From assembly GCF_964204645.1 (NCBI RefSeq), contig NC_134025.1, forward strand, positions 5,084,001 through 5,148,000: a stretch of 64,000 bases of DNA. The letters run 5' to 3'. This DNA comes from Tubulanus polymorphus (Eukaryota > Animalia > Nemertea). The notes beneath the pieces are model-generated. The model searched no databases. It was given only the letters and a program-made list of their open reading frames with translations, and was not told where the DNA came from. Shown in pieces: positions 1-50,150 of this stretch; position 1 is the stretch's first letter, and the number at the start of each line of letters is the position of its first letter. Position numbers and translations under genes: made by a program.

Positions 1-2349
1 CTATATTTCCAGCACTTCAAAGTACAATATCGAATGAGCCATTATCTATAAAACAATCGTTACAGCCATACTTCAAAGTCCGTACGCGTTTTGATATTGT
101 GACACCTTAGCATCAGTATTTCAATATATTTATGAATATTTGATCCTAGTAGTGTCGATATGAACCGCGAATGATGAATAATTCAACATGGAACGTTTTC
201 CCACTTCATCTTCTCCAACTCTTCTTTTTCTTTTTCATTTATCCATAATATTCATTATCAATTGACCTCTAAATGGTCGCTTCGAAAGTATAGAAGAGTA
301 CATGTTAATAGGCGTTTCAAGTACGAAGGGTCTTATCGCCAAATACAATATATTTTCTAATAATGGATTAATAAAACACGTAAGACATAGACTCCAATAC
401 ATTTATTGTATAAGTTTTTCATATAAAAATGTAATTTTAGAATTTTCCCAGCTTCCTTGGCATTCTTGAAATGCGTATCGATTTGAAATTTCGTCATTAT
501 TGTAGGCATATTTACATAGCAATTTACGTTTCATGAATCTTACGCGCTTCACGAATCTTCTCAAGCGTATGTTTGATTATCAAGTATTCATAATACCTAA
601 GCAAATTTCCGATGAGATCTACACAAAACAGCCAATAGAAAGTACCTCCCAATGTCGTGCAGTCATCTGTTTCACTCAATACGTGGCTCACTAATAATTA
701 ATTCGATGATTTTGGCGAATCGCTTCTTCTTCGAATGACAAAAGGTCATACCGGAGTAACCAGAGTGAACACGCGTAGGCCACATTAATTAATCAATGCT
801 TTACATCTTAAATCTGATGAACATACTGCGGGTGTGCGGCTAAACAGACCTCTGGTCACATCATCACAAAAGATTCAAATTGATATCCCCTGATGCGTGT
901 ATATAACAGTTTCAACAAAACGTAAATAATGTATATTGAATTGTAGTAATATGAAGACCTGCTTTACTATTGTAAAGTGAGAAAGTGTTTTGAAAATTCT
1001 CTAATCATTCGTTGGCTTGATATAACCATCTATTCGAAATTTGTTTTAGAGTCCATGATACAATGTACGACTTATAAATCATCTAAGCCGTTCCATAGAT
1101 ATAAGTTAATCAAACGCCCGCAGAGGTTGAAGTCATTTATATTGATTTTTTAAAATGAGTAATGTAAATCATATCGAAAACCGAGTGTTCAAGAATATTA
1201 TATTATATATATATTTAGAATATATAGTTAGAATATCAAGAATTTTTTCAAATACCAATCGTGTCAATCGTTGTGGTAGTCAACGCGTGGGATATGCACC
1301 AGAGAAGACCTTAAGAACAAGCTACAAAGAAGCATTCGGACTTATACACGTGGAAAATCGGAAAGAAACTTAAACAACGGACAATGTGATCTTAGTTCTT
1401 TGTAAATTCTATGTATGAAATCAGGCAGTTAACAAAAACCAAACCCCTCAGTCGCTAGAAGGTTCAGAAACCGGAACTGAAATTTACATTTATTTTCTTC
1501 GAATCAAACCAGAAATTCTGGACCTTTTATATTTCTTACTCCACATTCAAAATTTAAGTCCCCTGTATGTTTCCCGGCAGGTGAGTCGGGTTTGTAAGGG
1601 GACACATTAGATAAATAAGAGATTGACAATATGAGAGTAAGTACTATGAGATCACGTTAATGAATTATAAGCTATTAAGTCAGCCAATTATACATTTGCT
1701 ATTTACTAAATTGAAACTAGTTCCTTGAAGTTTCATCACTTTTTCAAGTGTCAATTCATTTAATATACCGTTCACGAAAGTTTCCGAAAGTGAGCAGATT
1801 AATGTAAAATCTGTCTGCTGTCGGTGACCAAAAATCGATTCTATTGGAAGAAAGAAAAACGACGATTAATCTTTTCATTGTTCATTAACTGCGCATATAT
1901 ATCTGAATAACCTGTGCGGCACCAACAGATGGGTACGTATGTTGACAATCGAAAACGAAAGCTGTGAGCGAAGCAGCCATTTATTTACGTGTCAAGATTT
2001 GATAAATACGTTATACAATATGTTAGTGAACAACGAAATAGGCGTTTTTTTATAAAACAACCAAATTCATTTTTGAATAGATATTGCACTAGTTGTTTTA
2101 TAGCATTGTTGCAAGTTTTTTTTGCCAACAAAAGAAAATAATTTGATTGACCACGTGCCAAATTGCGTTCGTGTTGATCAGAAATTTGTCCGTGGAATGA
2201 AATGAATTGTCAAACATTTAATGAGGATTTGATTAGAACTTGGAATGAAAATTCATGCTTCGAAAATATGAAAAGTAATTTTAGCACTTCGTCGCGAAAT
2301 GTATATTGTTGAAATAAACTAGGCATGTAATTTATCAAAGTACGCTTAC

Positions 2350-2680
2350 CTATTGTCGAAACAACGGTTCCCACAAAATAGAAAGAGCCCGAAAAGTCCC
2401 AGCGCATTCGTTTATGCTCCAAAAATCCAGCAGTAGTCGCTTCTGAATGTAATTCCAACAGTTCAAATAACTCCGTTTGATTTATATCCTGGTAACGCTT
2501 AATGAAGCTATTCAGAGACTGCAGGTAATTTTTCCGTTCTAGGATCTCATTGTCCCGTTCCAAGAACACAAATAACGTCGCCCCAAACAGCATGTAGATG
2601 ATAAGCACAACCGCCAGAAGAAAAAAACGGGCATTGTCTTCCCTCAAGTTCAAACGAGCGCAACAGCCGACGTGGTTCAT
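2350..2680 (-). CDS. KCNK13: K2P potassium channel THIK (KCNK13/12-like), first coding exon, proximal copy A (N-terminus, M1, cap, P1 helix); remaining exons lie left of the window
   Basis: Translation has LNLREDNARFFLLA and RWDFSGSFYFVGTVVSTIG, characteristic of THIK channels; ends at phase-1 donor ATAG|GTAAGC at 2350/2349. Confidence 0.9.
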
Positions 2681-2845
2681 TCTTATCGGACGAAGTTCTT
2701 GTTAAAATCCGACAAATGCGACGTCATAACGAGTGAAGAAAATTAACCTGACGCATTCAGTCACTCGATGGAATTCAAACTTGCATAGATTTTCTAGTGA
2801 GGCGAACTAGGCAAGTAATACATACCACTCGACACCAGTCCAGTC

Positions 2846-2870
2846 AGAGAGAGAGAGAGAGAGAGAGAGA
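2846..2870. repeat. (AG)12 microsatellite upstream of K2P exon A
   Basis: Pure AG run seen directly. Confidence 0.95.
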
Positions 2871-5800
2871 AAGTCATCATAATTGTTGACGATGTGTCTG
2901 ATGAAGTTACGATCCTCGAGCACCGTCCGATCAGTGACAACGGTGAATTAAAACAGCCATGTCCGTGAGAGTTGACGACAACGTGCGAGCATTGTTTCTA
3001 TAGAAACTACACATTAATATCTAGCGAGAAAACCATTGGACTGTTTGGGAAAATCGAGAGCCAATTTTGACATGTTTTTGCTCCATATCATATTCGACTA
3101 GATGGTGGCCCGCATGTGAACCTGGTGTTAGTGCGATTAATATGTGAATAATATTAATAATAATATTATCGATAATGTCGATCGGTAGGCAGATGCAAGT
3201 CGTATATCTATAAAATGAAGTGGCAGATGTTTTTTCCTGGGAATACGATACAATATGATCTACGTAGCCATCATTTGATTATAGTCGTGAGCGGTATTTG
3301 AAAAAAAAAATTGCCTACAATGATTAAGAGGTGAACGGATGCCACTTACGTATTGTTAATATGTTTTTTTTCCAGTGAAAATCCTGCACATAAAACATCT
3401 ACACCAAATTATACTGAATATATACATTTTTTGATTGACGCTTCGATTGCGAGCTTCGTCATATTCTTATCCAACTTGTTTGAATATATCTTTCATCGAA
3501 AGACCATTATTGTTATGATTATCTTCCGATGGATTGTAGATCATAATCAACGCATTTATCATCTTGGCCTCCAGAGTTCTCTCGCAAACAGCGCGTTTCC
3601 GGTTTAGTTAATTAATGGCAGCGCATTTTTCAAGTAAGCGATTGGAAGCTATGATCGGCTCCTAGCAAACACCATAGACGTCGCTGACAAGAAATGTAAA
3701 TAAAGTTCTGATTTTTACGGTACACTCTCAATATCTCGTCATCAATTATTTACATCAGTCACACCGATTTCTCATAACTACTGTTGTATGGAGGGTAACG
3801 TTAGAATTTATAAATCAGTAGAATCATGACGGTTTACATTTGAAGCAACGATATTTGTATAGAGCTGATTAATTTCTTCAGTAAGATATGCCAATATATT
3901 TTCTATGGTCGCATTATTCACAATCTCAAAGTACCACAGTTCTATGTTATTTATTGTTCATTTCCATATGTTGATTAATATTGAGTGAAATCATAACGTA
4001 GATATTTCGAACTGGATCTTTGACTGTATCTCGTAACAATGATATGTCGAAGCTTTCTTATGCTACTGTTCTTTCACCAAATTTCGAGCGTAGAAAAACT
4101 GATTATCACATACGTATGAAAGTAGATTACAAAAACAGATTTAGATTATATCAATAGTTAGTACTAAGAGTGTCCAAAACGTTACGTGAATTTCATGCCC
4201 CTTTTTCGAATCCTGCATTAATAAAAATATCTTACGAACTACTTTCAAAGTTAGTCGTAGATATCGTAGAGCACGGCGGTGCAGATTACAAAAACAGTTG
4301 CTCCAAAAGCGATCACAAAATTTCAGTTATCAACTAGTCACCAATTTTTTCACCATCAAGTAACACTCGAAATGTAGGTTAAGTTACAATGGAAGAAACG
4401 ATCGATTTTTCAATCAATGATTTGCTGCATAGTACCACATACAGCCTCAACAAAATGATCGTGCTTTTTCGCAAAATCTGTATGGCACATCATCAATAAA
4501 TTACCAAGGTTCGCATTGATAGATCTCAGCCCAATTATGCGATAGTTAGAAAAAAGTGTGGTCGCTTTCCCTAGGCTGGAATATGCTAGAATCCTGGCAT
4601 TCCGTCAACCATCACGCGATTACGTACGTGACGTCTAGTGAACGGTACGCTCTAGACCTTATTAGGAAACAAATCATCATTGACGTCTTGGTTTATCTCG
4701 GTCGTCGATAAGACCGCACGGCGCTTCAAAAATAATTCTGACTACTTTCGGTTCTTCAAACGCTTTTTATCAATGGAAAAGGTTGTGATCTACATTTCGT
4801 ATTGTGTCCGAGTTGTTATAAGTACATACTGTGAGGACACAGTTCGGGAATTCTGATTACAATCAGTCAAGGCACGGAAAATGGATTTTTTATCGATATG
4901 TATATGAATGAAATTTCCACTTTTGGGAATATGGAACCGAGCATTATATAGCTGTAAGCCAGATTTGCCTTCTCCCACCAGATACAAATTCATCCGTAAT
5001 GTTTGGCTTCGCAATTCGCCGCCCGCACCAATTTCATCGTTTAGCCAGAGTCGATATCAAGCAAATAATGAAGGGAAAAAATATATATGATTTACCACCA
5101 AGAAGCCACATTAAATTCATCGCTAGCGCGCTGTCTTATTTCTAGGGTTTCACGTGGGACGCGGTATAATCTATTTCGTTCCCGCATATTTGGCGCCATG
5201 ATAGATGAAAATAACCTTAAACACGAACGTCGTCAACGTAGCTGTAAATGCGTAGTACGGATTTTTTTTTAATAGATAATTCTGATCAAGTCTTGTCGGT
5301 TTTTCAATGCGGTATGTATGATATAGTTATTTTTCCACTAACTTGTAAAATAGATTCAACACAGTTCAACCGTTGTTTGCGAATCCACCGTTTGGGCCTC
5401 ATAATCACAATCACTTAATAACCAAAAATATACTTGATTTCATTAAGTTATTATCTCTTTTAGATCATTATCACGTTGATCATGAAGAAAGTAAAGGTAA
5501 TACAGATTTTTCTACATAAAAAAAAAAATAAAACGTTTATGGCAGATAAAAGCTGCATATTGAGCTGGAATATATGATTTATGTTTGACTAGTACGGCTT
5601 TCTATCACAATGGCTGACATGTTATCAAGTGATGCAAGCTGCTCCTGCGTAACAGCAAGCTTTATTAGTTTTGCGCACTATTTTCATTTAATAACAGAAG
5701 ATTTTTTATAATCTTATCACCATGAGGTATATGTGGCGCTTGTAAATAGAACGGCCTTGTCAGCTGTTACGCCAGGTCATAGTTAATTCTACATAAATGT

Positions 5801-8800
5801 ATATAAAATAATTTCGCATTATGAAATGAATACGAGGTTTATGAACTTAGATTCGCTCATCTATAAAAGTGCAAGCAATCTACATATGTGTACTCATAGT
5901 ACCATTAAATGAAACATAGACTTGAGGACCTTTATCCGCACACCATCTGGAATATAACACTCTAAAAGCACACATGCTAATCTAAATCTCAATACGAAAA
6001 AGTGGCTCTCAAATAATCAATGATACGTGAATTACGTTGATATCTTTACACTTAACGCAATTCAAAAAATCCCATCAATGGGTCTTAATAAATATTATCC
6101 ACGATGAATGATTTTTTCATCCATGGAATGAGTCAGTTGGATATGATTGCTATCAGGTTTGGTGTGAAGTGGTTATCAGATGACTAGCCGTCTCTATCTA
6201 TCCTTCAAGTCGACGGCAATCTCAGCTCCCCTTGATGATGGGTGCATCCGGGAAACGTTGCGGCTTCTTTTAAAATTCTAAGCCCGAGGCCAGTTATAGG
6301 GACGAATCACTAATGTATTTATATTCATGTTATTATCGCAGAAATTGACTTATGTTGAAAATAAAAGCTTTCAAATGTTTGATATTTGGGTGAATTTCAA
6401 AAATGAATGAATGAAGTGAATGAAAAAAATTAGATTTCTATTGATTCTTTTGTCTATCTCAGTACAACCAACGACAACCCGTTTGAAATGCGTAAATACG
6501 GTGAAGTCGTCTTCACAATCGAAAATCAAGTGGCGATCTGATCGAAATTGATCGATCTATCTTACATCGTTTGATTGTCGGCTTTGTCGTTATCGAGAGC
6601 TGCTTTGAAATCGTATATATCACCCCTTTGCCTTTATCATGAGCATCGAATTTCTGTCGCCATATATCGAACGTGGATGTACACGGCGCAAATTTATTGG
6701 AATATTTTCTGCTATCTGGTTAACAACTACGCGACATCTGCTGTAGTTTTGCCAAATTAAGCATCTATTCAACCTGCTCCTAATGGCACAGCAGCGCGGC
6801 AGCGTTACATAGCTATAAATTATACCATACTTTATAGCGATACTGTCGGCAGTACAGAACCCTTGAGCTGGATGATCTGATTTTTCAATGTAACATTATC
6901 CGAGATCTTTTTTCAGAATCTCCGTAAGTCAATTCCTAAAGAAGAGAAACTAATGTTTATAATAATCTGAAAAAACCGCTTCAAAGCATCATTTCTGATT
7001 TTGATAATGGATCTCAGATAATCATAATCCCGGGTATAAATCATAATACAAATCTTTTAATTTTTCTACTTTTCTACGTTTTTCTATTGTGTATATTGGA
7101 TTCGTTGTGACATTAAGAAATATATGGTCTTTGTATGTGTCTTGTGGAAAAGAAACTAGTTTAGTTTTGATAGTAATTTCCGTTAGTTTTCCCATTTCGA
7201 ACCCAATGTGACATACCAATGCCTATTTAGTGATAGCTTAAAGTTTTTTTATCCTTCCTTCGCTAGTAAGATCAAAACCTGAATTTCCAACCAGGTGACA
7301 TTTTAACGTCGCCACTATTCATATCTCATCGCATTTCAGAACACAAAACAAGTCGATTCAATAAGAAATCCGTTTGTTTCAGTAATAATACCGTCGTCAT
7401 CATGCTAACATCTGAAAATAGTCGTATGCGATTGAAAACTCGTTATGATTGATTACTAGCGTCATTCCGTTAAAAACAACACCCGTGGTAGGAGAAAACA
7501 GGTATGTCCCCGGAAATATATCCATCATGTCCTGGATGATAGGTTTTATATCCCCCAGCGGTTTGGGTCGCTTAAGATAATGCTGGCTGTATCTCATCAA
7601 ACGGTTTATTTATATCTTTAACAATTGCTGTATTGGATCTTCGAGAATGGGAGAATGCTCTTGAAAGTACAATTATCAGCAAAATAGGTTATTCGTCGTT
7701 AAGTGCTTCGATTATTTGTTGGTCTCATTTCGAGATTCACGGTTACAGTACTAGAATATTGGGTGTGGCTCCCCGATTTATCAGAAGTAATTGTTAGAGA
7801 TCCTTACGTTAAGCAGAATATTGCCTTAGTTAAGAAAATCAGCCGGTACCGATGGACAAGTGAGAAGCAGACAACAAACGGAATACTATTATCATCCGGG
7901 TGATTGAAAACGACCTCATATCAGGACTGTTTACCATATCACGGTGTCAAAAGCATTCAGCAGTAACGCTGCCTCGAGTAATTCCTTTTTCATCATTCAG
8001 CAATAAACCACACGTACATAAAGGAAGCGCTGTATTAATTATGGGCCAACGACAGGGATATAGACTATAATTATATCCTAATATGATATAGCATTAAATG
8101 TGTGCATCGTTGGATGGCAAATAAATGAGAACATTCTTTGAAGTTGGCGAGCTAGTCGGCGTAACTGCTTAACATGTTTCGGGTGCTTATTAGTATATAG
8201 CCGTACTCGCGATGCGTGTGACCCTCCGCCAGTATACTTAACCTTTAATCAGTCGGCGCAAATGCTTCAATCTCCACACGGCCATAAACAAATCAGAAAC
8301 AAATTACCGATGGACGTGACGTGCAAAAAATGCTTCGTACCATTAGAAAAAAAGAATATTGTATCAAGAATTTCGGCGAGGGAGGTGAATAAAGATAGGA
8401 GTAGAATCTTCAAGACCATCTTATTTATCTATTAATCAGAAACATATAAGCAATACGTAACAAAATTATGATCATTATTTTCCACACTGAAGCAGATTCA
8501 TCAACTGTCATACTCGGTAGAGGTGAAAACTGGTCACGTTACAATTCACGCTGTATATGGCTTATTGGAAGCCTAATTGAATTTTACGCGATTCCATTAC
8601 GAATTTCGTCTCCAATATATATAACAGTGGGGATAATCTTACTTGAGAATTGTACTGCCACGAGCATGGCCATTTGTCAAGCAGAAACCGATTATAGAAT
8701 TCGAATTCATGGCCGTGGAACTAATTACGAGACCAGTCCATATATATTGTATTTCATCATTAGCGCATAGTGGTGCATTTCTCCTTATACATTAAGTCAA

Positions 8801-9364
8801 TCGTGCGTATGCAAATCAAATCTCATTATATTGAATCTAAATTATTGGTTAAAAGGGTTGATAATAAGTTCAAAAAGGGTAATTTTAAGCCAAAATTTAA
8901 ATAAATTCTCATATTTTCACAATGTTTTTTAAGAAAGCGCCGATATGCAGAAATCAGAACGTGTTTACTCGAATAGTCGACAATAAGTCCAATGCTTATT
9001 ACCGGAGATAACGTAATATTCAAAATCGTTAAAATTCTCTTTGATACACAATACGGCTGATGTCATGACAGATTTTTACCTCTAAGTCATGAGGTATGAA
9101 ACATACATATCGAGATTGATGTTGAGTCGAACTCAAGGGGTGTTGTATTTCCTTTCTTTTTGTATCGTGCCACGTTGACGACCGTGACGTCGACTATTGA
9201 ATAGTTACGCCTACAAATCTGACAATTTTCAATGAATTCCTGATTAATTTTGGCTGCTGTAATTAACACTGTGTGAAAGAGGATGGACAATGCTGTACTT
9301 ACACAACAACTGAGTGAACGGCATTGCTGAAAGTATTAATTTAAGATTGATCTATAAAACCTAC

Positions 9365-9728
9365 CTATGGTTGAAACCACTGTGCCAACGAAGTAGAAAG
9401 ATCCAGCGAAGTCCCATCGCCTACGCTTATCGACAAGAAGACCAGTCACACTCGCTTCGGCGTGTAAATTCAAAAACTCCTGAAACTCCGTCTTGTTTAG
9501 ATGCGGGTTGTTCTCGTGGAATTTCTCCAGTGCTTCATAATATTTATTCCTTTCGACAATTTCGTTTTGCCTCTCTAGAAACATGAAGACGGTGGCACCG
9601 CTGACCATGTAAATACACATAACAATTGCTAAAAGTATGAATCTTGCGTTATCCTCAGTAAGGTGGAGATAAGCGCAGCACCCCTTTCTACGACGGGGAA
9701 CTGTTTGCCGAAATCTTCTTTTAGCCAT
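9365..9728 (-). CDS. KCNK13: K2P THIK (KCNK13/12-like), first coding exon, distal copy B
   Basis: HLTEDNARFILLA ... RWDFAGSFYFVGTVVSTIG; same phase-1 donor position (ATAG|GTAGGT at 9365/9364) as copy A. Confidence 0.9.
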
Positions 9729-10256
9729 TATCTATTCGGCATACCACCTAGAATCGAATGGGAAAACACGGTATGAAACACCGATATGAAATACTATTGT
9801 GTTAATGCAACCCACTACTACAACTGGTAATAACATATTTTGTCGTCTTGCTCGTGATGAATCTCTCCATCAAGTATCGTTGCACCGGTAAGATGACGGT
9901 GCACTGAAAGTGATAGACGACAACGGGCACGCGAGTTATTACAACGCTCTCACCATCGTTTAGTAACCTTTGCAAAAATATCGGAATCTTTAATCCCAAC
10001 GACATTAGTCCGCTATCAAGGAAAACATATTAAAGATTTTCGACCTGCAACTGCTTAGAGCGAATCATTATAACCTCGGAAAAACGTTGTTGATCCGTGA
10101 TTGGCGATGAAAATCAGTGTAGAGCTCAACCAGTTATAATACGCATAAAAAGGCTGTGAGCTTATAAGCTTCACATTGATAAATATGTACGTTGATTTGA
10201 CTTATAGCCTCGGGATGTGGTGTAAAACCACGCCTAATTTTCTGTATAGATGCTGT

Positions 10257-10270
10257 GTTGCTATAGCAAC
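10257..10270. promoter_or_regulatory. RFX X-box-like perfect palindrome GTTGCTATAGCAAC
   Basis: 14-bp palindrome matching the RFX consensus, lying between the divergent K2P exon B and TMEM229B. Confidence 0.55.
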
Positions 10271-11431
10271 GAAAATAACAAACCAAAAAGTTACCTATCA
10301 AAATTAATCCTTGGACAAATCTTTAGACACTGTTAACAAATGCTTTTATAGGTATAATGAAAATTGATTTTAAAATGAAAAATGAAATTGATATATCTAA
10401 AATCTTTTGATTAATACACTCAAATATTTTTAATTGGTATATCTAAGATATTTGAAAATCTAAAGATTAGATTGCTGAATATGAATTGCCTCGATTGATT
10501 AATGATTTATATTATCAGTAATAATATGTTGTAAACAAACAGAAATATTTACACTACTCGTTCAAACGATTTTCAATTCGATGATCGAAAGCCTGTGAAC
10601 TTCCTAAGAAAAACTTCCTAAGAAAATCCGATGATTCTGAATTGAGATAGTACCGAATATCTGGATTCTTCAAAAGTAAATATAATTTCTAAATTTAAAA
10701 GAAAAATTTTACGAGAACTAGGCCTGCTGGTAGCCTACGTCTGAATTGGAAGAGCCCATGAATTTGATTCTTCAAACAGACATTTTTCAAATTCGACGGC
10801 CTTATCGATTTTATAAACATATACTTATCACAAACAAAAGGTTACCGGTGCTACATAAACTAAGACTAACGAGAGAAAAGGGATGCAATACGGAAGCAGA
10901 GCTAAGGAATTTTGAGATTTAAGAGAAATATAAGCAGCAAGTTTTTTCTCTTATTATCGTCGTCATCACTGCATCATCAGATTTGTTACTTTGCACCTAG
11001 CCCATCCTCACAGGGTGGGTGTTAAACTATTTCTGTCACAGAATGGTACCGAATGAAAAAATGTGTAAAATTCCGAATCGATTAGCACTTAATTTTTCCT
11101 AGAACAAGTGGATGGCCTTTTCTTCCCTAGGAAAAAGATCGTACTCCTTATCGCCCTGGCAAGCAAAAACCGAAGTATATTCGTCCACTAGGTGGTGTTC
11201 TTGTCGATTAATGAAACGTTATAGACTCTAAAGAAAAAAACCTCGTAAGGAAGAGCCATTACGAAGCACTCAAACATTTTAATCGTAAAAGGTACCTTTG
11301 ACGGATTTTGGAAAAATATTTATTTCAGTTTATTGTCAATCAACAGCTCAATATCTAAAATCAATTTATTAGGCCTACATTAATTTAAAATTGGTTGACA
11401 AATCGTTCTCCAATCTTCCCAACCAATCCAA

Positions 11432-11885
11432 GGGTCATCCTTATTACCGAGATGATGTATTTTACCGAGATGAACCGAGATCAACCGAGATGAAATTAAA
11501 TATAACATATCTATTTATTCCTTATCGATTTTAACACTTGAAATCACGTTATATCAGTAATAAATACCTCCTAGAGTCATATTTTACATATTTTTTTATT
11601 TAAAAAAATTTTGACTCAAAAAACGTAAACTCGGTTAGCAATAAAATTTCATTGAATTTGATTGATCGACGATCTCATCTCGGTAAAGTTAAAAGTTATT
11701 TTTCCAAAAATATCCGACAAAATATGTAAACTATGAACCCAGCAGGCATTTATTACTGATATAATATGATTTCAATGGTTAAAATCGATATGGAAGGAAT
11801 AAATAAATATGTTATATTTAATTTCATCTCGGTTGATCTCGGTTCATCTCGGTAAAATACATCATCTCGGTAATAAGGATGACCG
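11432..11885. mobile_element. Mutator-like MITE, 454 bp, ~160-bp terminal inverted repeats, 9-bp target site duplication
   Basis: GGTCATCCTTATTACCGAGATG... inverted at both ends; CCAATCCAA at 11423-11431 and 11886-11894; subterminal ACCGAGAT motif four times per arm. Confidence 0.85.
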
Positions 11886-12052
11886 CCAATCCAATCCCGG
11901 CAGAGCCCTGTCTTAACAACAATCTCACAAATAATTGAACTTACCTTTTGCCCTGGTTGCAAATATTTGTACATTAGCCATGATATTTTTTCATCTAAAA
12001 GTAGCTGATTTTGAAATACAAGTTTTGGGTTGTTCACCACAAGCTTAAGTGA

Positions 12053-12637
<585 letters not shown>

Positions 12638-14127
12638 GAAATAACATATCCACCTCTAGAGGTACTAATACCATAGGTTCATTAGAAATTTTGTCATTCA
12701 GGGGTCATTTTGAGAAATTACAAGTAGGCTAAATATTGGCTCGAAAGTGATCCAGCTAATAATATATAAGAAAATGTACTTTTGTATCATACTCTGCTAG
12801 CCTGTCTATACTCATATCTAATACCCGGGTTACGCGTCTAAACTACGTTTGAAACACGGGTTTTCAACAAAACCTAGGTTTTAGAAACCTTTCTTGAAAA
12901 TGAAGAGTTTAAACCTGCATCAGGCTCTGCATTTTTGCTAGTATAGACGATAAACTTGTGTTCAATGCAGCGTTCGAGAGTCGACCTAGAACTTGAACTA
13001 TGGATCTGGACCCAAGTTTTTTGGTATTTGAGAGAAGTTTTTCCAGTGAGATTGCAATGGGTATATTTGTTTATGAAATAAATCAGTGGTCCACTCTTTC
13101 AGTAGCTTAATTCCGGTAAATTCAAAACCTAATCAAAATTTCAACTCGCCTAAAAGAAACTTGATCTGTGTCTTATATAACATTTTCTTAGTGATTTTAC
13201 TACAAGAAAAGTAGCCTCTGTAGCCTTTTATTCTAGTCTTAATCCTATATTGTCATTCAGCTTTATCATTTAACTTTATGCATCTAATTGTTAGTTTGGT
13301 ATTTATGATAGTAGTCTCTAAAACTTTGACAATCCATTGTAACCGCATGTAATGATACATGTATTATAGGCCTATATGTTGTTGAATCTTTTTGCATCTA
13401 AATGTTTTTAACCTGAACTGATTAGCCTTAATCTTTTAATGTAAATGCTATAGCATTTTTATGATGGGTATTAATCACGTGTTTCATCTGTGAAGATATC
13501 TGCATTTAATATGGAATTTTGGATACATTTTCACTCCATGATGACCAAGAAATCCGTTTGTATCATCTATCAGCCTTTAATTAATACCTCATCGAGTCAG
13601 AATTTCTTGTAATTGCATTTATTCAGTTGTTAATACCTTGCCCCTGACAGCCTTTTCTGTTTATTCATTTCATTTGTTTAGTTTTGTGTACCCGCTATTG
13701 AGTTAGAGTGATTGGCTGTCATTTTGGTCACCGTTAGTAAGAAAAACAACTTTCCCGTCCCTGTAGCACCAATATATATTTTCTGTATTCCCAGGGTTGT
13801 TCATGGTTAGTTGATGTATATTGATCATTCCACGACAGATGTCACCAAGCTGTGTTCTTTCTTGGGGTTCTTTGCAAATAGCCTTGACACATTCAGATAT
13901 TTAATTACCGGGTAACTTTTAACGAATATGATTAATTTTTCTATCAATATTATTATGAATTTATTTCTATTTCAAAGACTAATGTAAATCTAGACTTTGA
14001 ATTTAATGATTACCGGTCTGATCGGCTTATATTATGAAATAGGTTTTCAGTGTACCAAGGATTTAGCTGAAGAACCGGTTTTCAATATATATACGTAGTT
14101 TATGTATTTAATACGAAGTTTTCCGAT

Positions 14128-14267
14128 TAGGGGAACCTCATTACAACGGATGTCAAGGGCTGAAATATTTCCTCAACCAACATTTCATCACACCCATGAA
14201 TGAATTTGGTTTGATAAGTCATTTTACTTTTATAAAGTCGTCCCGAAGTCATAATGAGATTCCACTG
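14128..14267. mobile_element. Degenerate Tc1/mariner(pogo)-type MITE
   Basis: GGAACCTCATTACAAC ... GTCATAATGAGATTCCACTG-TA inverted ends; related end CAGTGGAACCTC at ~15865. Confidence 0.5.
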
Positions 14268-14864
14268 TATTCATGGTTAATTGTTCCATTTTTTTATTTT
14301 ATTCATTTTTCTTGTTTTGTCGTTGTATTTTTTGTGATATAATATTTCATTACCGGTGAAATAAGCCCCACACTGTGTCAAAGGTTAAAACGTCATGAGT
14401 CTGAATCAGTGTATAGATACAAATGGAATTGTTTTGAAGGTTTTTTATTGAACGTTGGCACCCCTAAATTAATAGGTCCAATCATGGATGTAAAAACTAG
14501 TTTATACGTCCATGGTCCAATGTATATGACCACAAATTGATGGAGTTGTACTTGTAAGCGAATAAATCAGATTGCGCTGCTCCTTTCCAAAAGTGGGAGG
14601 TGAAAAAACTGTTGAAAAAAGCTTTTCGGTTAGCTCATATATTTATTAGATGAACACTTGGGGCAGCTAGGACACAGCCATCTCAGAAACATTCTTTGTT
14701 CATAAACATTGTAGTATGTAAATTTGTAAGTAGTGATTGATAATATATTCAAATGATATTGAGATGATAATAATCATACAAACAAGGTAACGGTTTTTAT
14801 TGACTTGTAAATTGTTGAATAAAAACGTTGTTTGAATTCAAATATATCTTAAGTTCGTCGATAT

Positions 14865-16128
14865 CTATTCCTTGTGAGTTCGGAGCTTTGTAGCGTTGTC
14901 TTGAAGAAACCTGGAGAATGACAGCTTGTCTATCTTGACACCAGTACGACTTTTCGCCTCCAGATAAAGTTCCAGTGCTTCCCGACGCGGCAAGCCGATG
15001 CTCCTATACATGTCCGGTGTCGGTATTCCTAACAGTTTTCTGATTGCCTTAGTTATTACCTAAAACATTGAGTTTTCTATTCAGGATCAAGGAATATCTA
15101 CTCCGACTTGGGATGCAATTTATGGTCACTAGTAGTCTACTACTCGCTTTGGCGGAGATGAGAGGATGATTAAATGTAGGGATGAAGAAAAATATACATA
15201 TACAACTATTTTGATCTGAAAATTATACATTTGATATATTCAATATATACCACCAACCTGTTGAGACTTGAATTACGGGGCAGTCGGGCACTTTTTTGTT
15301 GGATTGGAAATTATTTAAAAAGTTGCTATCGTAATACATGCTATATCCTCTTGTATATAATAAATTTCACGATTTTCATGGCCAGATTTGTTCAGAATCG
15401 ATCTCAAAGCTTGGACAAATTAAACAATTTCTAGGTGAGGGCTCGCTTAATCTGCAATCTCGTAACCTTGCTAGTTATGGCAAAACCTCAATGGCCGCAC
15501 CATTGAAAATTTCCTCCCAATAATTTCGAAGAAGAATTTCTGGCCTGGTAATCAATTAATCATAACATTATTCTCGGTGAAAGTAAAGTGAGATTAATCT
15601 TTTTGGATTGCGAAACGGGTGAGACTAGGTTAAAAAAACGTCGAGCTTCGGAATGTATTGTCGATTATTACCTTCATATGTTCGTAATCGGTAATTCCAA
15701 TCTTGGGAAGACTGCACATGTCCAGAAATATCAGTTTCTTGCCGTTGATGAAATTATCGATAAAACACAGCTATAATTATTACCAAAACTAAATTTGTTT
15801 AACTCGGCTTTAAGCACATTAAAACTAATTGGTCAAACAGAATCCAAAATATATATTAGGTATACAGTGGAACCTCAACGAACTTCACGGGAACAAAAAA
15901 TATCTTCGTTATAACCGATAGTTCGTTGTATCCAGTATGATTAAATTAATTGAATTTTCTTACTTTGCGTTTATCGGTAATATGAAAATACGAAGCTACC
16001 TTGTACTGGGGGAAGCCTAGATCTGAGATCCAACACGCGACCTGCTGTTCGGGCCAAGTGACGCAGTGAGGCACCAATGCTTGGACTTTTCTCTCGAGAT
16101 TTTTTCGAGTGGATGCAAGTTGGGCCAT
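14865..16128 (-). CDS. SAMD15: SAM-domain protein SAMD15-like; exons 16000-16128, 15672-15770, 14865-15059 (alternative in-frame ATG at 16146)
   Basis: Spliced product W..QQVACWISDLGFPQYK|LCFIDNFINGKKLIFLDMCSLPKIGITDYEHMK|VITKAIRKLLG...RSIGLPRREALELYLEAKSRTG resembles the SAMD15 C-terminal region; GT-AG phase-0 introns. Confidence 0.85.
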
Positions 16129-16145
16129 CTTTCGGGATCCCTGCA

Positions 16146-16159
16146 TTTACCAAGGAAAC
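16146..16159 (-). promoter_or_regulatory. X-box-like motif GTTTCCTTGGTAAA at the SAMD15 start
   Basis: 12/14 match to GTTTCCATGGTAAC; second partial site GTTGCCGTTAAC ~15 bp further upstream. Confidence 0.4.
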
Positions 16160-16809
16160 GTCATTGACGGAATGTTGCCGTTAACTACTGTAACCACGAT
16201 ATCCTGTGAGACTGACGAATGTATGACGAGTGCATATGCGTGAAAGGTATCAAATGTACAGTTTATTTGCTTGATTTCCATCACAATCAGAACTCGGCGC
16301 TATCCGAAACCCGACTCAAAAATTAGGAGGATGAAGCAAACGAAATTCTGAAAGGCCTAACTAAAACGAGAGCAGGTCACCTGATTTTTATCGTCACTAT
16401 CCGGCAGATCTATTGAAGTATGTCGGTGGCCTGATTTCTATTTTGCCGGCCACACTGTTGCATTCGATAGAACACCTTCCTGCAAGTATTCTATCTTGTT
16501 TCTATCAGGCATTAGTGATAGCCTAAAGAGCAACGATTTACCCCAAAAATCACCCCACAACAATGAATATTTAAGACAATTTTTCGAGACTAGAATTATA
16601 TTACATGTAAATACATTAAGTTAATTTAACGGAGAATACTTGGAGTGGGAATTTGGAGTTGGCTATTGACTATGCGTTGAACTTAACAGCTTCGTGTGAA
16701 AACAAGACAAATTGTCCAAAGGTTTTTGCATGAATGCACGTACATGAACTTACCACACATATCTTAGACTCACAAATATCACAAAAAATCGAGTTTTCAG
16801 TACTCATTA

Positions 16810-16878
16810 TTCAATTTCTTCAAGATTTCCGCTTCCCTGCTAGGGGTTGAGCAAAGATCCGTCATATTAGAATATCAA
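16810..16878 (-). promoter_or_regulatory. SECIS element (type II) in the deiodinase 3' UTR
   Basis: Minus strand AUGAC-GGAUCUUUGCU-CAAC-CCCU-AGC-AGGG-A-AGCGGAAAUCU-UGAA: UGA/GA quartet, 11-bp helix II with one mismatch, unpaired AA, apical mini-helix. Confidence 0.88.
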
Positions 16879-17025
16879 CGAATACCGTACTACTGCGGTT
16901 CTTGGTATTTCCATTAGTTAGTTTGTTCTGATGGCTATATTAACATTACCTTGATTTAAATTCGGACACAATAAGACACAACACACTTTTAAGATAGATT
17001 TTGTTAATGTTTGAAGCTATTTAGA

Positions 17026-17847
17026 TCATCCATCCAAGTTTTCATTTTCTACGCACACCATCACGGGATAATTCGTTTCAAGCCAAGTCAACAGATCTTT
17101 CGGATTGAAAGAGAATGGTCCGACTCCACCTTGATATTTGATGATTCCGCCGACGATGGCGTAAATCCGTTCATTCACCGCACCAAACGATCGCATGCAA
17201 TTATTGTCAAGATCGTCGACGACGACAAAAAACGGTAGACCCATTTCAATGATAAACGTCGCCGCGGCGAATCTATCACTTAATGTACGGTGCATGTTTA
17301 CTTCCCGGCCGGTGCTCCGAAAACCCGGCCAGCGATCAGTAGGATGAGATTCGTCGATATAAACTAAAACGAAATCAACGACGCCAGAAAAATCAAAAGC
17401 CATTCTGCTGAGATCTTCCAAAGCATCCATAAACGGTGGTCAGGTGCAGTTCCCGAAGATGACCACCAAAGGTCTGCCGTTTCTCGCGTAATCCATCAGT
17501 TTCGCTTGTTTTTGGTCTACAACAGCAAAAACCGTAGGGTTAGGCGCTTCCTGGTTTATGCGCGCTAATTTCAATGTATCGTAGTAATGGGTTTTCAGTA
17601 CAAGTTTAAAACTTTCCAGCGAAAACAGCGACTCGGCCGCCTCAGTAGTGAAATTTTCGTATTGTCGTTTAGCCACGTTGGTCATTTTCGAAACGGCAAC
17701 CCTGCGAATCGGTGGAAATATTCCGATAGGAAACAACATCAAATGAATGTAGCAAATGACGATAAAGATGATGAAAAATCGTAGCCATGTGAATGTACGT
17801 CTTACGCCCGACGACAAGTCCGATACAAATTTATTCCAGCCTCCCAT
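17026..17847 (-). CDS. Iodothyronine deiodinase (selenoprotein), intronless, ~273 aa, Sec codon TGA at 17440-17442
   Basis: Two listed ORFs are in frame across TGA giving RPLVVIFGNCT-U-PPFM; also YIDESHPTDRW, VDDLDN, ERIY motifs and an N-terminal hydrophobic segment; ATG at 17847 in good Kozak context (listed ORF start at 17934 is TTG). Confidence 0.93.
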
Positions 17848-19069
17848 GTTTCTTGTGAGAAAACGGTTTTTGAGATGTCTCCAATGTTGGATCCCAATAT
17901 GTATTTGGTGCGCGCCAAAAACCGCCGCTTCCAATCATTACATCAGCTTAAAAATTACAGCGTGTTATTGGTTTCGATCAAGATGACGTCATCATTTTCT
18001 AACTGGCCAAGTGCGAACAAATATCGATATCATGTCACTGAATCATTCATCAGGATACAGTTTCATCAGATGCTGTGTGTATAACTGCGAAGATACCGGG
18101 GATAAAAACTTAAGACAGAAACCTGTATGCCTCAGCGAAATCTATCTCTTCCAATGAGTAATAAATTATTCCCATTTCCATAGAACAGCATTTCCAAAAG
18201 GTTTAAATTGTCCGAAGCTTCAGATTAGCCACGCTGTACTTTTCCTACTTTTCCTTGCAATCCCGATGCGGATATAAGAACTCGAAGATCCGAAAATAAT
18301 TTCTTCTTTTTCAACAGGTCCTCTTCAATCATATATCGGTGATATTCGGTTTCCGAAAACCTCATTGCGTCGGAATGAGATCGTTTCTAGAGCACTCATT
18401 TGTCATCGAGAAATAAGCTTGAATGAGATCATTTAGCCAGAGGCAATTGAACCCGTAACCGAATCTGGGCTAAATGATTCCCCGTTAGCAAACAAATGTG
18501 AAGTGTGATAAGCTTTTTGGTAATTGCTAGGCATCGGCGGTCAATTTGAGGAATCGATCGCAGAAAGGGCGGTCGACTTTTTGGAAAATGAATGATGCAT
18601 TTAATACAATACATTCAATAGTTCGAAATGATACTCAAGTGATAAGATTGCCAGAAATTAACCAAATATTGAAATTTTGTGCAATCTTCGTCATTCAAAG
18701 AACTAAAAGATCCGTGGTATCTACGGTGCTATCAAGATCTTTTGTTTTCTAAAACCAGTATTGATGGCGAAGATAAGGCTCGAGTGGAACTAAGCCACAT
18801 GGCTTGTTGCAAGTCTACTAAAGTTCTACTGTTTTAAATTCGACTGCCCGCGGTGCGCAATTCTGTCAGGTAACTGTACGGTGCTGCCACCATGTCACCT
18901 TGCTGCCCGGAGCTGTCCAGACCGCGTCGATGGATGCCCGTATGGTGCTGCCGCCATGCCTTAACGACCAACGTTAGATCCAACAGCAAGATCCACTACT
19001 ACTAGCAACGTTAGTTTGTTTTCCAGTTAAGTCATTGTTTCGAGCGTTTATTATTCTTCAAACACTACA

Positions 19070-20131
19070 ATGACGACTTACAGAGTAAGTATATCTAATC
19101 TACTTTATTTACAACAGCAGAAATTCACCTTGAACAATTCAAAATTAACCCAAAATTGGTAAAAAAGAATAATAATCGTACAAAAATTCCTCTTGTGCTA
19201 ACTACCAAAAAATAAAACGTACGTCCAGACCAGTCACCAGGACCAGTCTGAGCTTCTGGAATCTGTGTGCGGAGTGCGGCTTTTGAGCGACTGCAATTTA
19301 GGTGTCCCCCAGGCAGTGTTATATACCTCTAACCTAACCTTAACCATAACACTGTTCTTTTTTGACACTCTGATATTATTGTCATTTATATTATAATTTT
19401 ATAGCGCCACTGAAAAGGTTCCCTAAACTGCAGTTAGACCAGCCAAGGCCTCCGTCGCACGACCCTCCACGCACTCTGCAGTTTGATATGACTGATTGAT
19501 ACCTATGAATCTTTTTTGAATTTAGGCTGCTGATTCCAAACGGGAAGAGTACAGAAAATACTTAGAAAAGGCTGGAGTACTAGATGCTTTAACTAAAGGT
19601 AGACTATCCTATCCGTGAATGCATGATTGGTTTTTGATTACAGATGAACTCAATGACAAAGTGGTGCACCACCTTTTCCTTGTTAAGCTTTATAATTTCT
19701 AAACATACTTTTCAGTACTTGTCACGTTATATGAAGAACCCGAAAAACCAAACAATGCCTTAGAGTATCCTTTTATCGAAAACAGAACCAACATAGTTGT
19801 TAGTCTAACACTTGACATAGAATTTTATGAAAATCAATGATGGACTCTTCATTTGATTCCTTAACAAGCGTTAAAGCTTTCTTCGTCAGCATATCGGAGC
19901 TAGTGGGCCAGAAACTGCTGATGTCGAAGCACTTCGGTTAGAGGTCACGGAACTTAGACAAAAAGTTGAACAGTTAACCGAAGAAAACAATGAGCTCAAA
20001 GCTAAGGTAAGTTTAAAATATCTTAGTCAACAGTACCTTGAAAACTTTTTCATTAACATGCAATGTTTATGTATATATTTTTTCTAATTATTTGCCTTTT
20101 TCAGCTTCAACAAGAGCCAGCAGCTGAATAG
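19070..20131 (+). CDS. MYCBP: c-Myc-binding protein (AMY-1); exons 19070-19084, 19526-19598, 19716-19764, 19877-20006, 20105-20131
   Basis: Spliced MTTYR|AADSKREEYRKYLEKAGVLDALTK|VLVTLYEEPEKPNNALD|FLRQHIG...ENNELKAK|LQQEPAAE*; absent from the ORF track because exons are short. Confidence 0.93.
19765..19876 (+). other. U12-type (minor spliceosome) GT-AG intron in MYCBP
   Basis: 5' site GTATCCTTT, branch site TTCCTTAAC at 19857-19865, no polypyrimidine tract before the AG; removal restores the reading frame. Confidence 0.92.
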
Positions 20132-39064: not shown

Positions 39065-43200
<4,136 letters not shown>

Positions 43201-44227: not shown

Positions 44228-45251
44228 GTGAGGGACCCGATTCAACACACTGTCCCGTGAGAAGACCCGATTCAACTTACTGTCCCGTGAGAGGACCCGA
44301 TTTCAAATACTGTCCCGTGAGAGGACCCGATTCAACACACTGTCCCGTGAGAGGGCCCGATTTTAAATACTGTCCCGTGGGAGGACTCGATTCAACACAC
44401 TGTCCCGTGAGAGGACCTGATTCAACACACTGTCCCGTGAGAGGACCCGATTTCAAATAATGTCCCGCGAGAGGGCCCGATTCAACACACTGTCCCGTGA
44501 GAGGACCCGATTTTAAATACTGTCCCGTGAGAGGACCCGGTTCAACACACTGTTCCGTGAGAGGGCCCGATTTTAAATACTGTCCCGTGAGAGGATCCGA
44601 TTTTGAATACTGTCCCGTGATAGGGCCCGGTTTCAAATAATGTCCCGTGAGAGGGCCCGATTCAACTCACTGTCCCGTGAGAGGGCCCGATTTTAAATAC
44701 TGTCCCGTGAGAGGACCCGATTTTGAATACTGTCCCGTGAGAGGGCCCAGTTTCAAATAATGTCCCGTGAGAGGGCCCGATTCAACACACTGTCCCGTGA
44801 GAGGACCCGATTTTAAATACTGTCCCGCGAAGGAACCCGATTTTAAATACTGTCCCGCGAGAGGGCCCGATTCAACACACTGTCCCGTGAGAGGACCCGG
44901 TTTCAAATAATGTCCCGCGAGAGGGCCCGTATCAACACACTGTCCCGTGAGAGGACCCGATTTTAAATACTGTCCCGTGAGAAGACCCGAATCAACTTGC
45001 TGTCCCGTGAGAGGGCCCGGTTTCAAATAATGTCCCGTGAGAGGGCCCGGTTTCAAATAATGTCCCGTGAGAGGGCCCGATTCAACACACTGTCCCGTGA
45101 GAGGACCCGATTTCTAATACTGTCCCGTGAGAGGACCCGAATCAACTTGCTGTCCCATGAGAGGACCCGGTTTCAAATAATGTCCCGTGAGAGGACCCGA
45201 TTCAACACACTGTCCCGTGAGAGGACCCGATTCAACACACTGTCCCGTGAG
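44228..45251 (+). repeat. Left 30-bp tandem array (~34 units), TGTCCCGTGAGAGGACCCGA plus variable 10-mer
   Basis: Exact 30-nt period visible from 44251 to 45251. Confidence 0.97.
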
Positions 45252-48864: not shown

Positions 48865-50150
48865 GTCCTCTCACGGGACAGTGTGTTGAACCGAGTCCTC
48901 TCACGTGACATTCTTTGAAACCAGGTCCTCTCACGGAACAGTAAGTTGATTCGGGTCCTCTCACGGGACAGTGTGTTGAATCGGGTCCTCTCACGGGACA
49001 GTATGTTGAATCGGGTCCTCTCACGGGACATTATTTAAAAGCGGGCCCTCTCACGGGACAGTGTGTTGAATCGGGTCCTCTCACGGGACAGAGTGTTGAA
49101 TCGGGCCCTCTCACGTGACATTATTTGAAACCAGGTCCTCTCACGGGACAGTGTGTTGAACCGAGTCCTCTCACGTGACATTCTTTGAAACCAGGTCCTC
49201 TCACGGGACAGTAAGTTGATTCGGGTCCTCTCACGTGACAGTGTGTTGAATCGGGTCCTCTCACGGGACAGTATGTTGAATCGGGTCCTCTCACGGGACA
49301 GTATTTAAAATAGGGTCCACTTACGGGACAGTGTGTTGAATCGGGTCCTCTCACGGGACAGTGTGTTGAACCGGGTCCTCTCACGGGACAGTATTTAAAA
49401 TCGGGTTCCTTCGCGGGACAGTATTTAAAATAGGGTCCTCTCACGGGACAGTGTGTTGATTCGGGTCCTCTCACGGGACAGTGTGTTGAATCGGGTCCTC
49501 TCACGGGACAGTATTTAAAATAGGGTCCTCTAACGGGACAGTATTTAAAATCGGGTCCTCTCACGGGACAGTGTGTTGAACCGGGTCCTCTCACGTGACA
49601 TTATTTGAAACCAGGTCCTCTCACGGAACAGTAAGTTGATCCGGGTCCTCTCACGGGACATTATTTGAAACCAGGTCCTCTCACGGGACAGTGTGTTGAA
49701 TCGGGTCCTCTCACGGGACAGTATTTAAAATCGGGTTCCTTCACGGGACAGTATTTAAAATAGGGTCGTCTAACGGGACAGTATTCAAAATCGGGTCCTC
49801 TCACGGAACAGTGTGTTTAATCGGGTCCTCTCACGTGACATTATTTGAAACCAGGTCCTCTCACGGAACAGTAAGTTGATCCGGGTCCTCTCACGGGACA
49901 TTATTTGAAACCAGGTCCTCTCACGGGACAGTGTGTTGAATCGGGTCCTCTCACGGGACAGTATTTAAAATCGGGTTCCTTCGCGGGACAGTATTTAAAA
50001 TAGGGTCGTCTAACGGGACAGTATTCAAAATCGGGTCCTCTCACGGAACAGTGTGTTTAATCGGGTCCTCTCACGGGACAGTATTTAAAATCGGCTCCTC
50101 TCACGGGACATTGTGTTGAATCGGGACCTCTCACGGGACGGTAACTTGAA
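48865..50150 (-). repeat. Right 30-bp tandem array (~43 units), inverted relative to the left array
   Basis: TCGGGTCCTCTCACGGGACA recurs every 30 nt; the TCACGGGAC(A/G) core runs from 48871 to 50140. Confidence 0.97.

What the first reader, a model, noticed from the sequence alone, without database searches (positions are those of the whole stretch)
2350..9728. Duplicated M1-cap-P1 exon of a THIK channel with no downstream exon between the copies
Seen: two intact paralogous first coding exons 6.7 kb apart end at the same phase-1 donor inside the first selectivity filter (STI-G). I find no G(F/Y)G-initiated second exon or long ORF between them, so they are not two complete tandem genes. Their N-termini differ (MNHVGCC versus basic MAKRRFRQTVPRRRKGCC), as do the caps. 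Known: a basic N-terminal region contributes to ER retention of vertebrate THIK-2. Inference: alternative first exons spliced to shared constant exons, yielding THIK-1-like and THIK-2-like variants from one gene.
Basis: partly seen in the sequence, partly recalled or inferred. Interest (0 to 1): 0.7.

Follow-up and report, generated by a model that had tools for sequence, protein, structure and literature searches.

The report
THIK channel with spare first exons
A leak potassium channel gene, probably of a ribbon worm, carries two old, intact copies of its first coding exon with no rest-of-gene between them, so one gene likely makes several channel versions that differ in their front end and outer cap, though no spliced RNA has been seen.

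Summary
Observation confirmed. Two THIK (KCNK12/13-type) exon-1 copies, A 9728-9365 and B 2680-2350 (minus strand), run ATG to STI-G|GT at the same phase-1 donor. No THIK exon 2 lies anywhere in the 64 kb; in relatives exon 2 is one ~290-codon frame, so micro-exons cannot hide it. The copies are old (synonymous sites saturated, flanks unalignable) yet keep frame, donor, 39/39 and 38/39 conserved residues and a short upstream ORF ending at the start codon: both look selected. New: a full-length THIK (P0007) is recorded on a contig of the same length as a window protein, so likely the same chromosome, and its exon 1 is a third version (69% to A, 59% to B); no collected protein carries A or B. 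Best reading (0.65): alternative first exons spliced to a shared exon 2 left of the window, possibly three. No RNA was obtainable, so splicing is untested. The 'THIK-1-like/THIK-2-like' label is not supported by the tree; A's basic tail is only an analogy. Duplicated alternative first exons are a known kind; I found no K2P precedent.

The parts
9365..9728 (-). THIK coding exon 1, copy A: basic N-tail, M1, cap, pore helix P1 up to STI + first G of the filter; phase-1 donor GTAGGT at 9364
   Evidence: (by homology to B); 0 of 39 conserved columns changed
9728..9742 (-). 4-codon upstream ORF whose TAA overlaps A's start ATG
   Evidence: function inferred
9748..9770 (-). pyrimidine-rich stretch ending in TAG (AG at 9749-9748), a candidate acceptor 19 bases before A's ATG; A may have a non-coding leader exon
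   Evidence: sequence; not tested
2681..9364 (-). spacer between the copies: no THIK exon, longest stop-free stretch 91 codons, no Rfam family
   Evidence: other haplotype continuous 2881-11321
2846..2870 (.). (GA)n microsatellite about 170 bases upstream of B's ATG; the one point not bridged by independent contigs
2683..2727 (-). 14-codon upstream ORF ending 2 bases before B's start ATG
   Evidence: function inferred
2350..2680 (-). THIK coding exon 1, copy B: short uncharged N-tail, M1, cap, P1 up to STI + G; phase-1 donor GTAAGC at 2349
   Evidence: 1 of 39 conserved columns changed
1..2349 (-). intron downstream of B, running off the window; exon 2 (and likely a third exon 1) must lie outside the window
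   Evidence: third exon inferred

Best explanation
The two exons are old, intact tandem duplicates of THIK coding exon 1, and each is likely used as an alternative first exon spliced to one shared exon 2 predicted to lie left of the window, likely alongside a third exon-1 copy. Shown: two intact copies, same phase-1 donor, no exon 2 in 64 kb, purifying selection since an old duplication. Inferred: each copy has its own promoter or leader; its donor skips the downstream copies (first exons lack a strong acceptor) and joins the acceptor of the ~290-codon exon 2, completing the filter as STI|GFG; the subunits would share M2-M4, pore 2 and the C-terminus and differ in N-tail, M1 and cap. Because the pore helix is nearly identical (18-19 of 20 residues), the versions would differ in where and how much channel is made and trafficked rather than in ion selectivity; co-expressed versions could form mixed dimers. 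A's arginine-rich tail may hold it inside the cell as in THIK-2 (about 0.25).
For: Saturated synonymous but not replacement sites (pS 0.88, pN 0.25; codon positions 62/87/34% identical; 7 of 24 four-fold sites identical; no indel in 106 codons), flanks no more alike than shuffles. In a substitution-only simulation an unselected exon keeps ATG, frame and GT in 16% of runs at 0.1 changes per site and 0.2% at 0.5. 0 and 1 of 39 conserved columns changed; a short uORF ends within 3 bases of the start in A, B and 2 of 3 relative loci, against 256 of 2701 ATGs in the window (post hoc, and L002/L003 are related). Donors match those of L001-L003. 62 of 63 exon-2-only proteins hold the whole downstream half in one frame; intron 1 exceeds 3.6 kb in L003, so exon 2 beyond 2.35 kb is expected. 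P0007 and the window's own ORF P0458 are each recorded on one contig of identical length; P0007's exon 1 is neither A nor B (73/106, 63/106), is not in the window, and only P0007 carries that exon 2 among the best 120 of 1265 hits (next 87%): three exon-1 versions and one recorded exon 2.
Against: No spliced RNA: no listed run is on record as RNA. No collected protein contains A or B (top identity 69% among the best 120 of 455 hits, 65% among 71 of 71), P0007's cluster has one member, so the public annotation has no A or B isoform. No within-species pair with shared C-terminus and different exon 1 was found among 165 full-length relatives (5 of 285 close pairs flagged, none with an identical C-terminus). 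The position of P0007's exons relative to the window is not known.
Confidence: 0.65

Rival explanations
1. Relics: complete tandem genes once existed and A and/or B recently lost their exon 2; they are orphan exons that are no longer used, and the only working gene is P0007.
For: The annotation holds neither A nor B. Old divergence dates the duplication, not present use. Dead variable exons occur in UGT1 clusters (PMC1885805, passages).
Against: Both copies keep ATG, frame, donor, uORF and 39/39, 38/39 conserved residues; loss would have to be within roughly the last 0.1 changes per site of a history that saturated silent sites, for each orphan. No decayed exon 2 is found between them.
Confidence: 0.13
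2. Separate, interleaved or nested paralogous genes: A and B each have their own exon 2 further left (or exon 1 and exon 2 are both duplicated and combine).
For: Nothing left of position 1 could be read (no genome held). The copies are old enough to be whole-gene paralogues, and P0007 could be a separate locus on the chromosome.
Against: A second complete gene should be easy to annotate by homology, yet no protein with B or A and no second exon 2 on that contig was listed. A's intron would cross B's donor region on the same strand.
Confidence: 0.12
3. Truncated modulators: the exons are not spliced but read through or are cleaved in the intron, giving M1-cap-P1 fragments (130 and 156 aa) that suppress full channels.
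For: A short N-terminal TRESK fragment is dominant-negative (PMC13582297, passages). B's frame runs 46 codons into the intron and hexamer poly(A)-like sites follow at +128 and +365.
Against: Both donors are kept as in relatives while flanking intron has lost all likeness; the tails are unrelated; such hexamers are common at 34% GC; the exon is conserved right up to the split filter codon.
Confidence: 0.05
4. Assembly artefact: two loci were joined at the (GA)n repeat, so A and B are not neighbours.
For: No contig of X1-X3 bridges 2836-2880.
Against: The tool skips that repeat; contigs of X1 and X2 carry 34-35 further letters towards it from both sides; depth is alike on both sides (32.6, 27.4). 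Even so A would have 6.5 kb downstream without exon 2 on an independent contig.
Confidence: 0.04

Closest known systems
Variable-first-exon clusters: vertebrate UGT1, GCNT2, clustered protocadherins (PMC1885805, passages)
   Same: Tandem homologous first coding exons of near-equal length and same frame ahead of shared downstream sequence; GCNT2 has three.
   Different: Here an ion-channel pore subunit in an invertebrate; the splice falls inside the selectivity filter; promoters and shared splicing are not shown.
Tandem exon duplication-derived N-terminal substitutions (39 in the human catalogue, PMC8373072, passages and supplement search)
   Same: Homologous N-termini from duplicated 5' coding exons and alternative promoters.
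   Different: 'KCNK' occurs 0 times in its text and in the one supplementary file held.
Vertebrate THIK-1 (KCNK13) and THIK-2 (KCNK12) (PMC12263422, PMC11230452, passages)
   Same: Same subfamily; R92 of the arginine sandwich kept, no cap cysteine; one version with an arginine-rich N-tail and one without.
   Different: THIK-1/2 are two whole genes that form their own clade; A and B are orthologues of neither. The cap arginines R83 and R87 are absent from both; A's tail does not match the R11-R12-x-R14-R15-R16 spacing.
Duplicated pore exons of invertebrate NALCN (exon 15a/b, 31a/b; PMC4436565, passages)
   Same: Exon duplication diversifies the pore region of a leak channel in lophotrochozoans.
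   Different: Those are internal mutually exclusive exons that change the filter residue; here first exons, and the filter half is identical.

Membership tests
THIK (K2P13/12) subfamily | Closest sequence relatives are KCNK12/13 | tested here: met
THIK (K2P13/12) subfamily | Arginine at the R92 position before RWDF (arginine sandwich, THIK-only per PMC11230452) | tested here: met
   A RRRWDF, B RMRWDF align to human RPRWDF; partner R258 lies in exon 2, outside the window
THIK (K2P13/12) subfamily | No cap cysteine for an inter-subunit disulfide (PMC12263422) | tested here: met
   no Cys in either cap
THIK (K2P13/12) subfamily | M4 tyrosine gate and second pore | not testable with these tools
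   encoded by exon 2, not in the window; present in P0007
THIK-2 (KCNK12) | Orthology to vertebrate KCNK12 rather than to both THIK genes | tested here: not met
   vertebrate THIK-1 and THIK-2 rows form one clade without A or B
THIK-2 (KCNK12) | N-terminal arginine cluster that retains the channel in the ER | tested here: inconclusive
   A has 8 K/R and two RxR, B none; spacing differs; basic tails also in single-copy invertebrate THIKs; retention untested
Variable-first-exon gene (UGT1/GCNT2 type) | Tandem homologous exons, same strand, length and end phase, no constant exon between | tested here: met
Variable-first-exon gene (UGT1/GCNT2 type) | Each exon under purifying selection | tested here: met
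   (shows past selection; recent loss not excluded)
Variable-first-exon gene (UGT1/GCNT2 type) | Each exon spliced to the same constant exon | not testable with these tools
   no RNA run listed; no genome held
Variable-first-exon gene (UGT1/GCNT2 type) | Each exon has its own promoter | not testable with these tools
   upstream 1 kb of A and B share no likeness above shuffles; A has a candidate acceptor 19 bases upstream, so a shared leader exon is not excluded

The most novel reading that the evidence does not exclude
A single K2P gene with a three-member array of variable first exons (A, B and the exon 1 of P0007) on one constant exon: three subunits, up to six dimers, spliced in the middle of the selectivity filter, each with its own uORF-guarded start and trafficking tail, with copy B older than the split of the ribbon-worm lineages sampled (AU p 0.047 against A+B+P0007+Lineus as one clade) - an invertebrate route to the surface/retained pairing that vertebrates reached with two genes.
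Probability: 0.3. Interest if true: 0.7.

Novelty: new variant of a known kind. Interest (0 to 1): 0.5.

Why it matters
If spliced as inferred, this is a K2P channel built like UGT1 or the protocadherins: nature's own N-tail/M1/cap swaps on a fixed pore and gate. That gives a clean set of natural chimeras to ask what the K2P cap and N-tail contribute to trafficking, dimer choice and gating, and whether THIK-2-style intracellular retention arose independently. It also shows a likely gap in the public annotation (two conserved exons in no protein record). The architecture itself is a known kind and recurs in this scan, which limits the surprise.

Tried and rejected
No genome is held for the window, so nothing left of position 1 could be read. 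Run search: no RNA holder listed; the three runs are contigs of one study and showed no joint at either donor, which says nothing on splicing. Polymorphism: none of the listed X1 differences falls in exon A, but only about 1.6 were expected; uninformative. Micro-exons between the copies: rejected. Recent duplication or collapsed repeat: rejected (even depth). Isoform pairs in relatives: none among 165 full-length proteins; L003 shows no second exon 1 within 5.5 kb upstream or 3.7 kb downstream, L001 and L002 are too short to tell. Exact look-up of the two read-through ORFs: not in the collection. Dating B: unresolved; AU tests do not reject A+B (p 0.098, 0.086), A+B+P0007 (0.076), B+P0007 (0.217), B+Lingula (0.415) or A+Lineus (0.506), and only marginally reject A+B+P0007+Lineus (0.047); the second tree left out 7 long or redundant rows and added 7. 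Cap specialisation: not shown. A spliced onto B through a weak AAG at 2699-2698 would be in frame but would double M1-P1 and break A's filter; rejected as unlikely. Literature: searches listed no paper on invertebrate THIK exon structure, duplicated K2P first exons or a THIK uORF (listings only; subscription papers are not searched; bioRxiv supplements are closed). The primary THIK-2 retention paper was not held; PMC13192137 and bioRxiv 2025.08.08.669258 passages added nothing on retention. No structure or complex was predicted, since the downstream half is not in the window. Earlier-finding look-ups by place and sequence were blank.

Full report
Observation. On the minus strand two exons encode the N-terminus, M1, cap and first pore helix of a THIK channel: A (ATG 9728 to 9365) and B (ATG 2680 to 2350). 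Both end STI plus the first G of the filter glycine, followed by GTAGGT and GTAAGC. The shared 106 residues align without gaps at 65/106. Human THIK-1 is the best solved-structure match (E 6e-20); spiralian KCNK12/13-like proteins are the best sequence matches (65% for B, 69% for A).

No exon 2 in the window. tblastn with 153 THIK proteins hit only the two exons; an HMM of 145 C-terminal halves found nothing above threshold in any frame. No acceptor followed by G-F/Y-G occurs below 9365 on the minus strand, and the longest stop-free stretches are 91 codons (between copies) and 74 codons (after B). In relatives the downstream half is one frame of about 290 codons: 62 of 63 exon-2-only proteins hold it whole, many preceded by intron-like letters (some may come from RNA contigs). 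Relative loci L001-L003 have the donor at the same place, and L003 has no exon 2 within 3.7 kb. An independent contig of run X1 with 38 other letters is continuous over 2881-11321; the (GA)n repeat at 2846-2870 is not bridged, but the tool skips it and contigs extend 34-35 letters towards it from both sides.

Both copies look selected. Silent sites are saturated (pS 0.88; 7 of 24 four-fold sites identical), replacement sites are not (pN 0.25; second codon positions 87% identical), and 1 kb flanks are no more alike than shuffles. A changes 0 and B 1 of 39 columns conserved in 90% of relatives. An unselected exon kept ATG, frame and GT in 67, 38, 16, 3 and 0.2% of simulations at 0.02, 0.05, 0.1, 0.2 and 0.5 changes per site, so an orphan would have to be recent. 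Both keep a cap glycosylation sequon. A short upstream ORF ends within 3 bases of the start codon in A, B, L002 and L003 (4 of 5 loci; L001 has an out-of-frame upstream ATG), against 256 of 2701 ATGs in the window. This was noticed after the fact and L002/L003 are related, so it is a lead; no paper was listed for a THIK uORF.

A third version. The window's TMEM229-like ORF (P0458) and the full-length nemertean THIK P0007 are each recorded on one contig of identical length; I infer they share a chromosome. P0007's exon 1 is neither A (73/106) nor B (63/106) and is not in the window; other genes fill the 52 kb upstream of A, so it most likely lies left of the window or elsewhere on the chromosome. 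P0007 is alone in its cluster, is the only 100% hit to its exon 2 among the best 120 of 1265, and no listed protein contains A or B. The simplest fit is A-B-third copy-exon 2, with the annotation using the copy nearest exon 2; its position was not seen. The same facts also count against my reading: the annotation shows no A or B isoform, and no relative among 165 full-length proteins shows two exon-1 versions on one C-terminus.

Kinship. A groups with nemertean rows (97/80 with P0007; 91/87 for the wider group, bootstrap not settled); B is unresolved near the spiralian base. AU tests leave B's age open (only A+B+P0007+Lineus is marginally rejected, p 0.047). Vertebrate THIK-1 and THIK-2 form their own clade, so A and B are not THIK-2 and THIK-1 orthologues.

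Mechanism. Inferred: each copy is a first coding exon, and its donor joins the single exon-2 acceptor, completing STI|GFG. Differences between A and B lie in the N-tail (8 versus 0 K/R), M1 (16/24 identical) and cap (22/50), not in the pore helix (18/20), so selectivity should be shared. Both keep the arginine at human R92, a THIK signature (PMC11230452, passages), and both lack the cap arginines R83/R87 that shape human THIK-1 conductance (PMC12263422, passages). Cap divergence between A and P0007 (26/50) equals that between two species (27/50), so it shows no specialisation. THIK-2 is retained in the ER by R11, R12, R14, R15, R16 and co-assembles with THIK-1 (PMC12263422, passages); A has two RxR triplets, but single-copy invertebrate THIKs carry up to 5 basic residues there and the fish THIK-2 records fetched lack the cluster. 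Retention of A is a testable guess (about 0.25). That RxR is a general ER signal is recalled, not from a call. A has a candidate acceptor 19 bases before its ATG, so mutually exclusive use behind a shared leader is a variant I cannot exclude.

Known kind. Tandem variable first exons are established for UGT1, GCNT2 and protocadherins (PMC1885805, passages); a human catalogue lists 39 such N-terminal substitutions with no mention of KCNK in text or the one supplement held (PMC8373072); duplicated pore exons are known in invertebrate NALCN (PMC4436565, passages). Searches (listings only) showed no K2P case. Earlier notes of this scan report the same layout in other genes (unchecked), so the architecture is not rare.

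Verdict. Real feature; alternative first exons on a shared exon 2 at 0.65; relics 0.13, separate genes 0.12, truncated modulators 0.05, misassembly 0.04. New variant of a known kind; interest 0.5.

Noticed in passing
window 25894-25706 and 25639-25439 (-): A TRPA-like ankyrin channel gene has its pore-helix/filter/S6 exon twice (63 and 67 codons, 49% identical, both phase 0-0), separated by a 66-base intron with a CTAAC branch-like site 40 bases from the upstream donor: the layout of sterically mutually exclusive exons, which would swap the pore itself. Likely worth its own follow-up.
   Followed up: partly
window 9742-9728 and 2727-2683 (-); L002, L003 just upstream of the match: Short uORF ending within 3 bases of the THIK start codon in 4 of 5 spiralian loci; possible conserved translational control.
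   Followed up: partly
window 17934-17029 (-): Apparently intronless iodothyronine deiodinase with an in-frame TGA at 17442-17440 (NCT-TGA-PPF), so a likely selenoprotein; no Rfam SECIS at gathering score in 1-20000.
   Followed up: partly
window 11433-11884: MITE-like element with 91-base, 99% inverted arms and contig depth in the thousands, 1.7 kb upstream of copy A.
   Followed up: no
window 12110-12634 (+): TMEM229-like ORF (Pfam PF06541; the TMEM229 name is recalled), divergent from THIK copy A.
   Followed up: partly
window 44228-45251 and 48865-50153: Two arrays of a 30-base minisatellite in opposite orientation about 3.6 kb apart, with 149-base repeats between; possibly the ends of a mobile element.
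   Followed up: no
window 39613-40467 (-): Exons of a cytosolic 5'-nucleotidase (PF05761).
   Followed up: no
window 2699-2680 (-): A weak AAG acceptor 18 bases before B's ATG is in the phase that would join A's donor to B in frame; probably chance.
   Followed up: partly
P0074 versus P0188: Across species exon 1 diverges much faster than exon 2 (84.5% versus 98.6% in two scallops), so the duplicated part is the naturally variable part of THIK.
   Followed up: no
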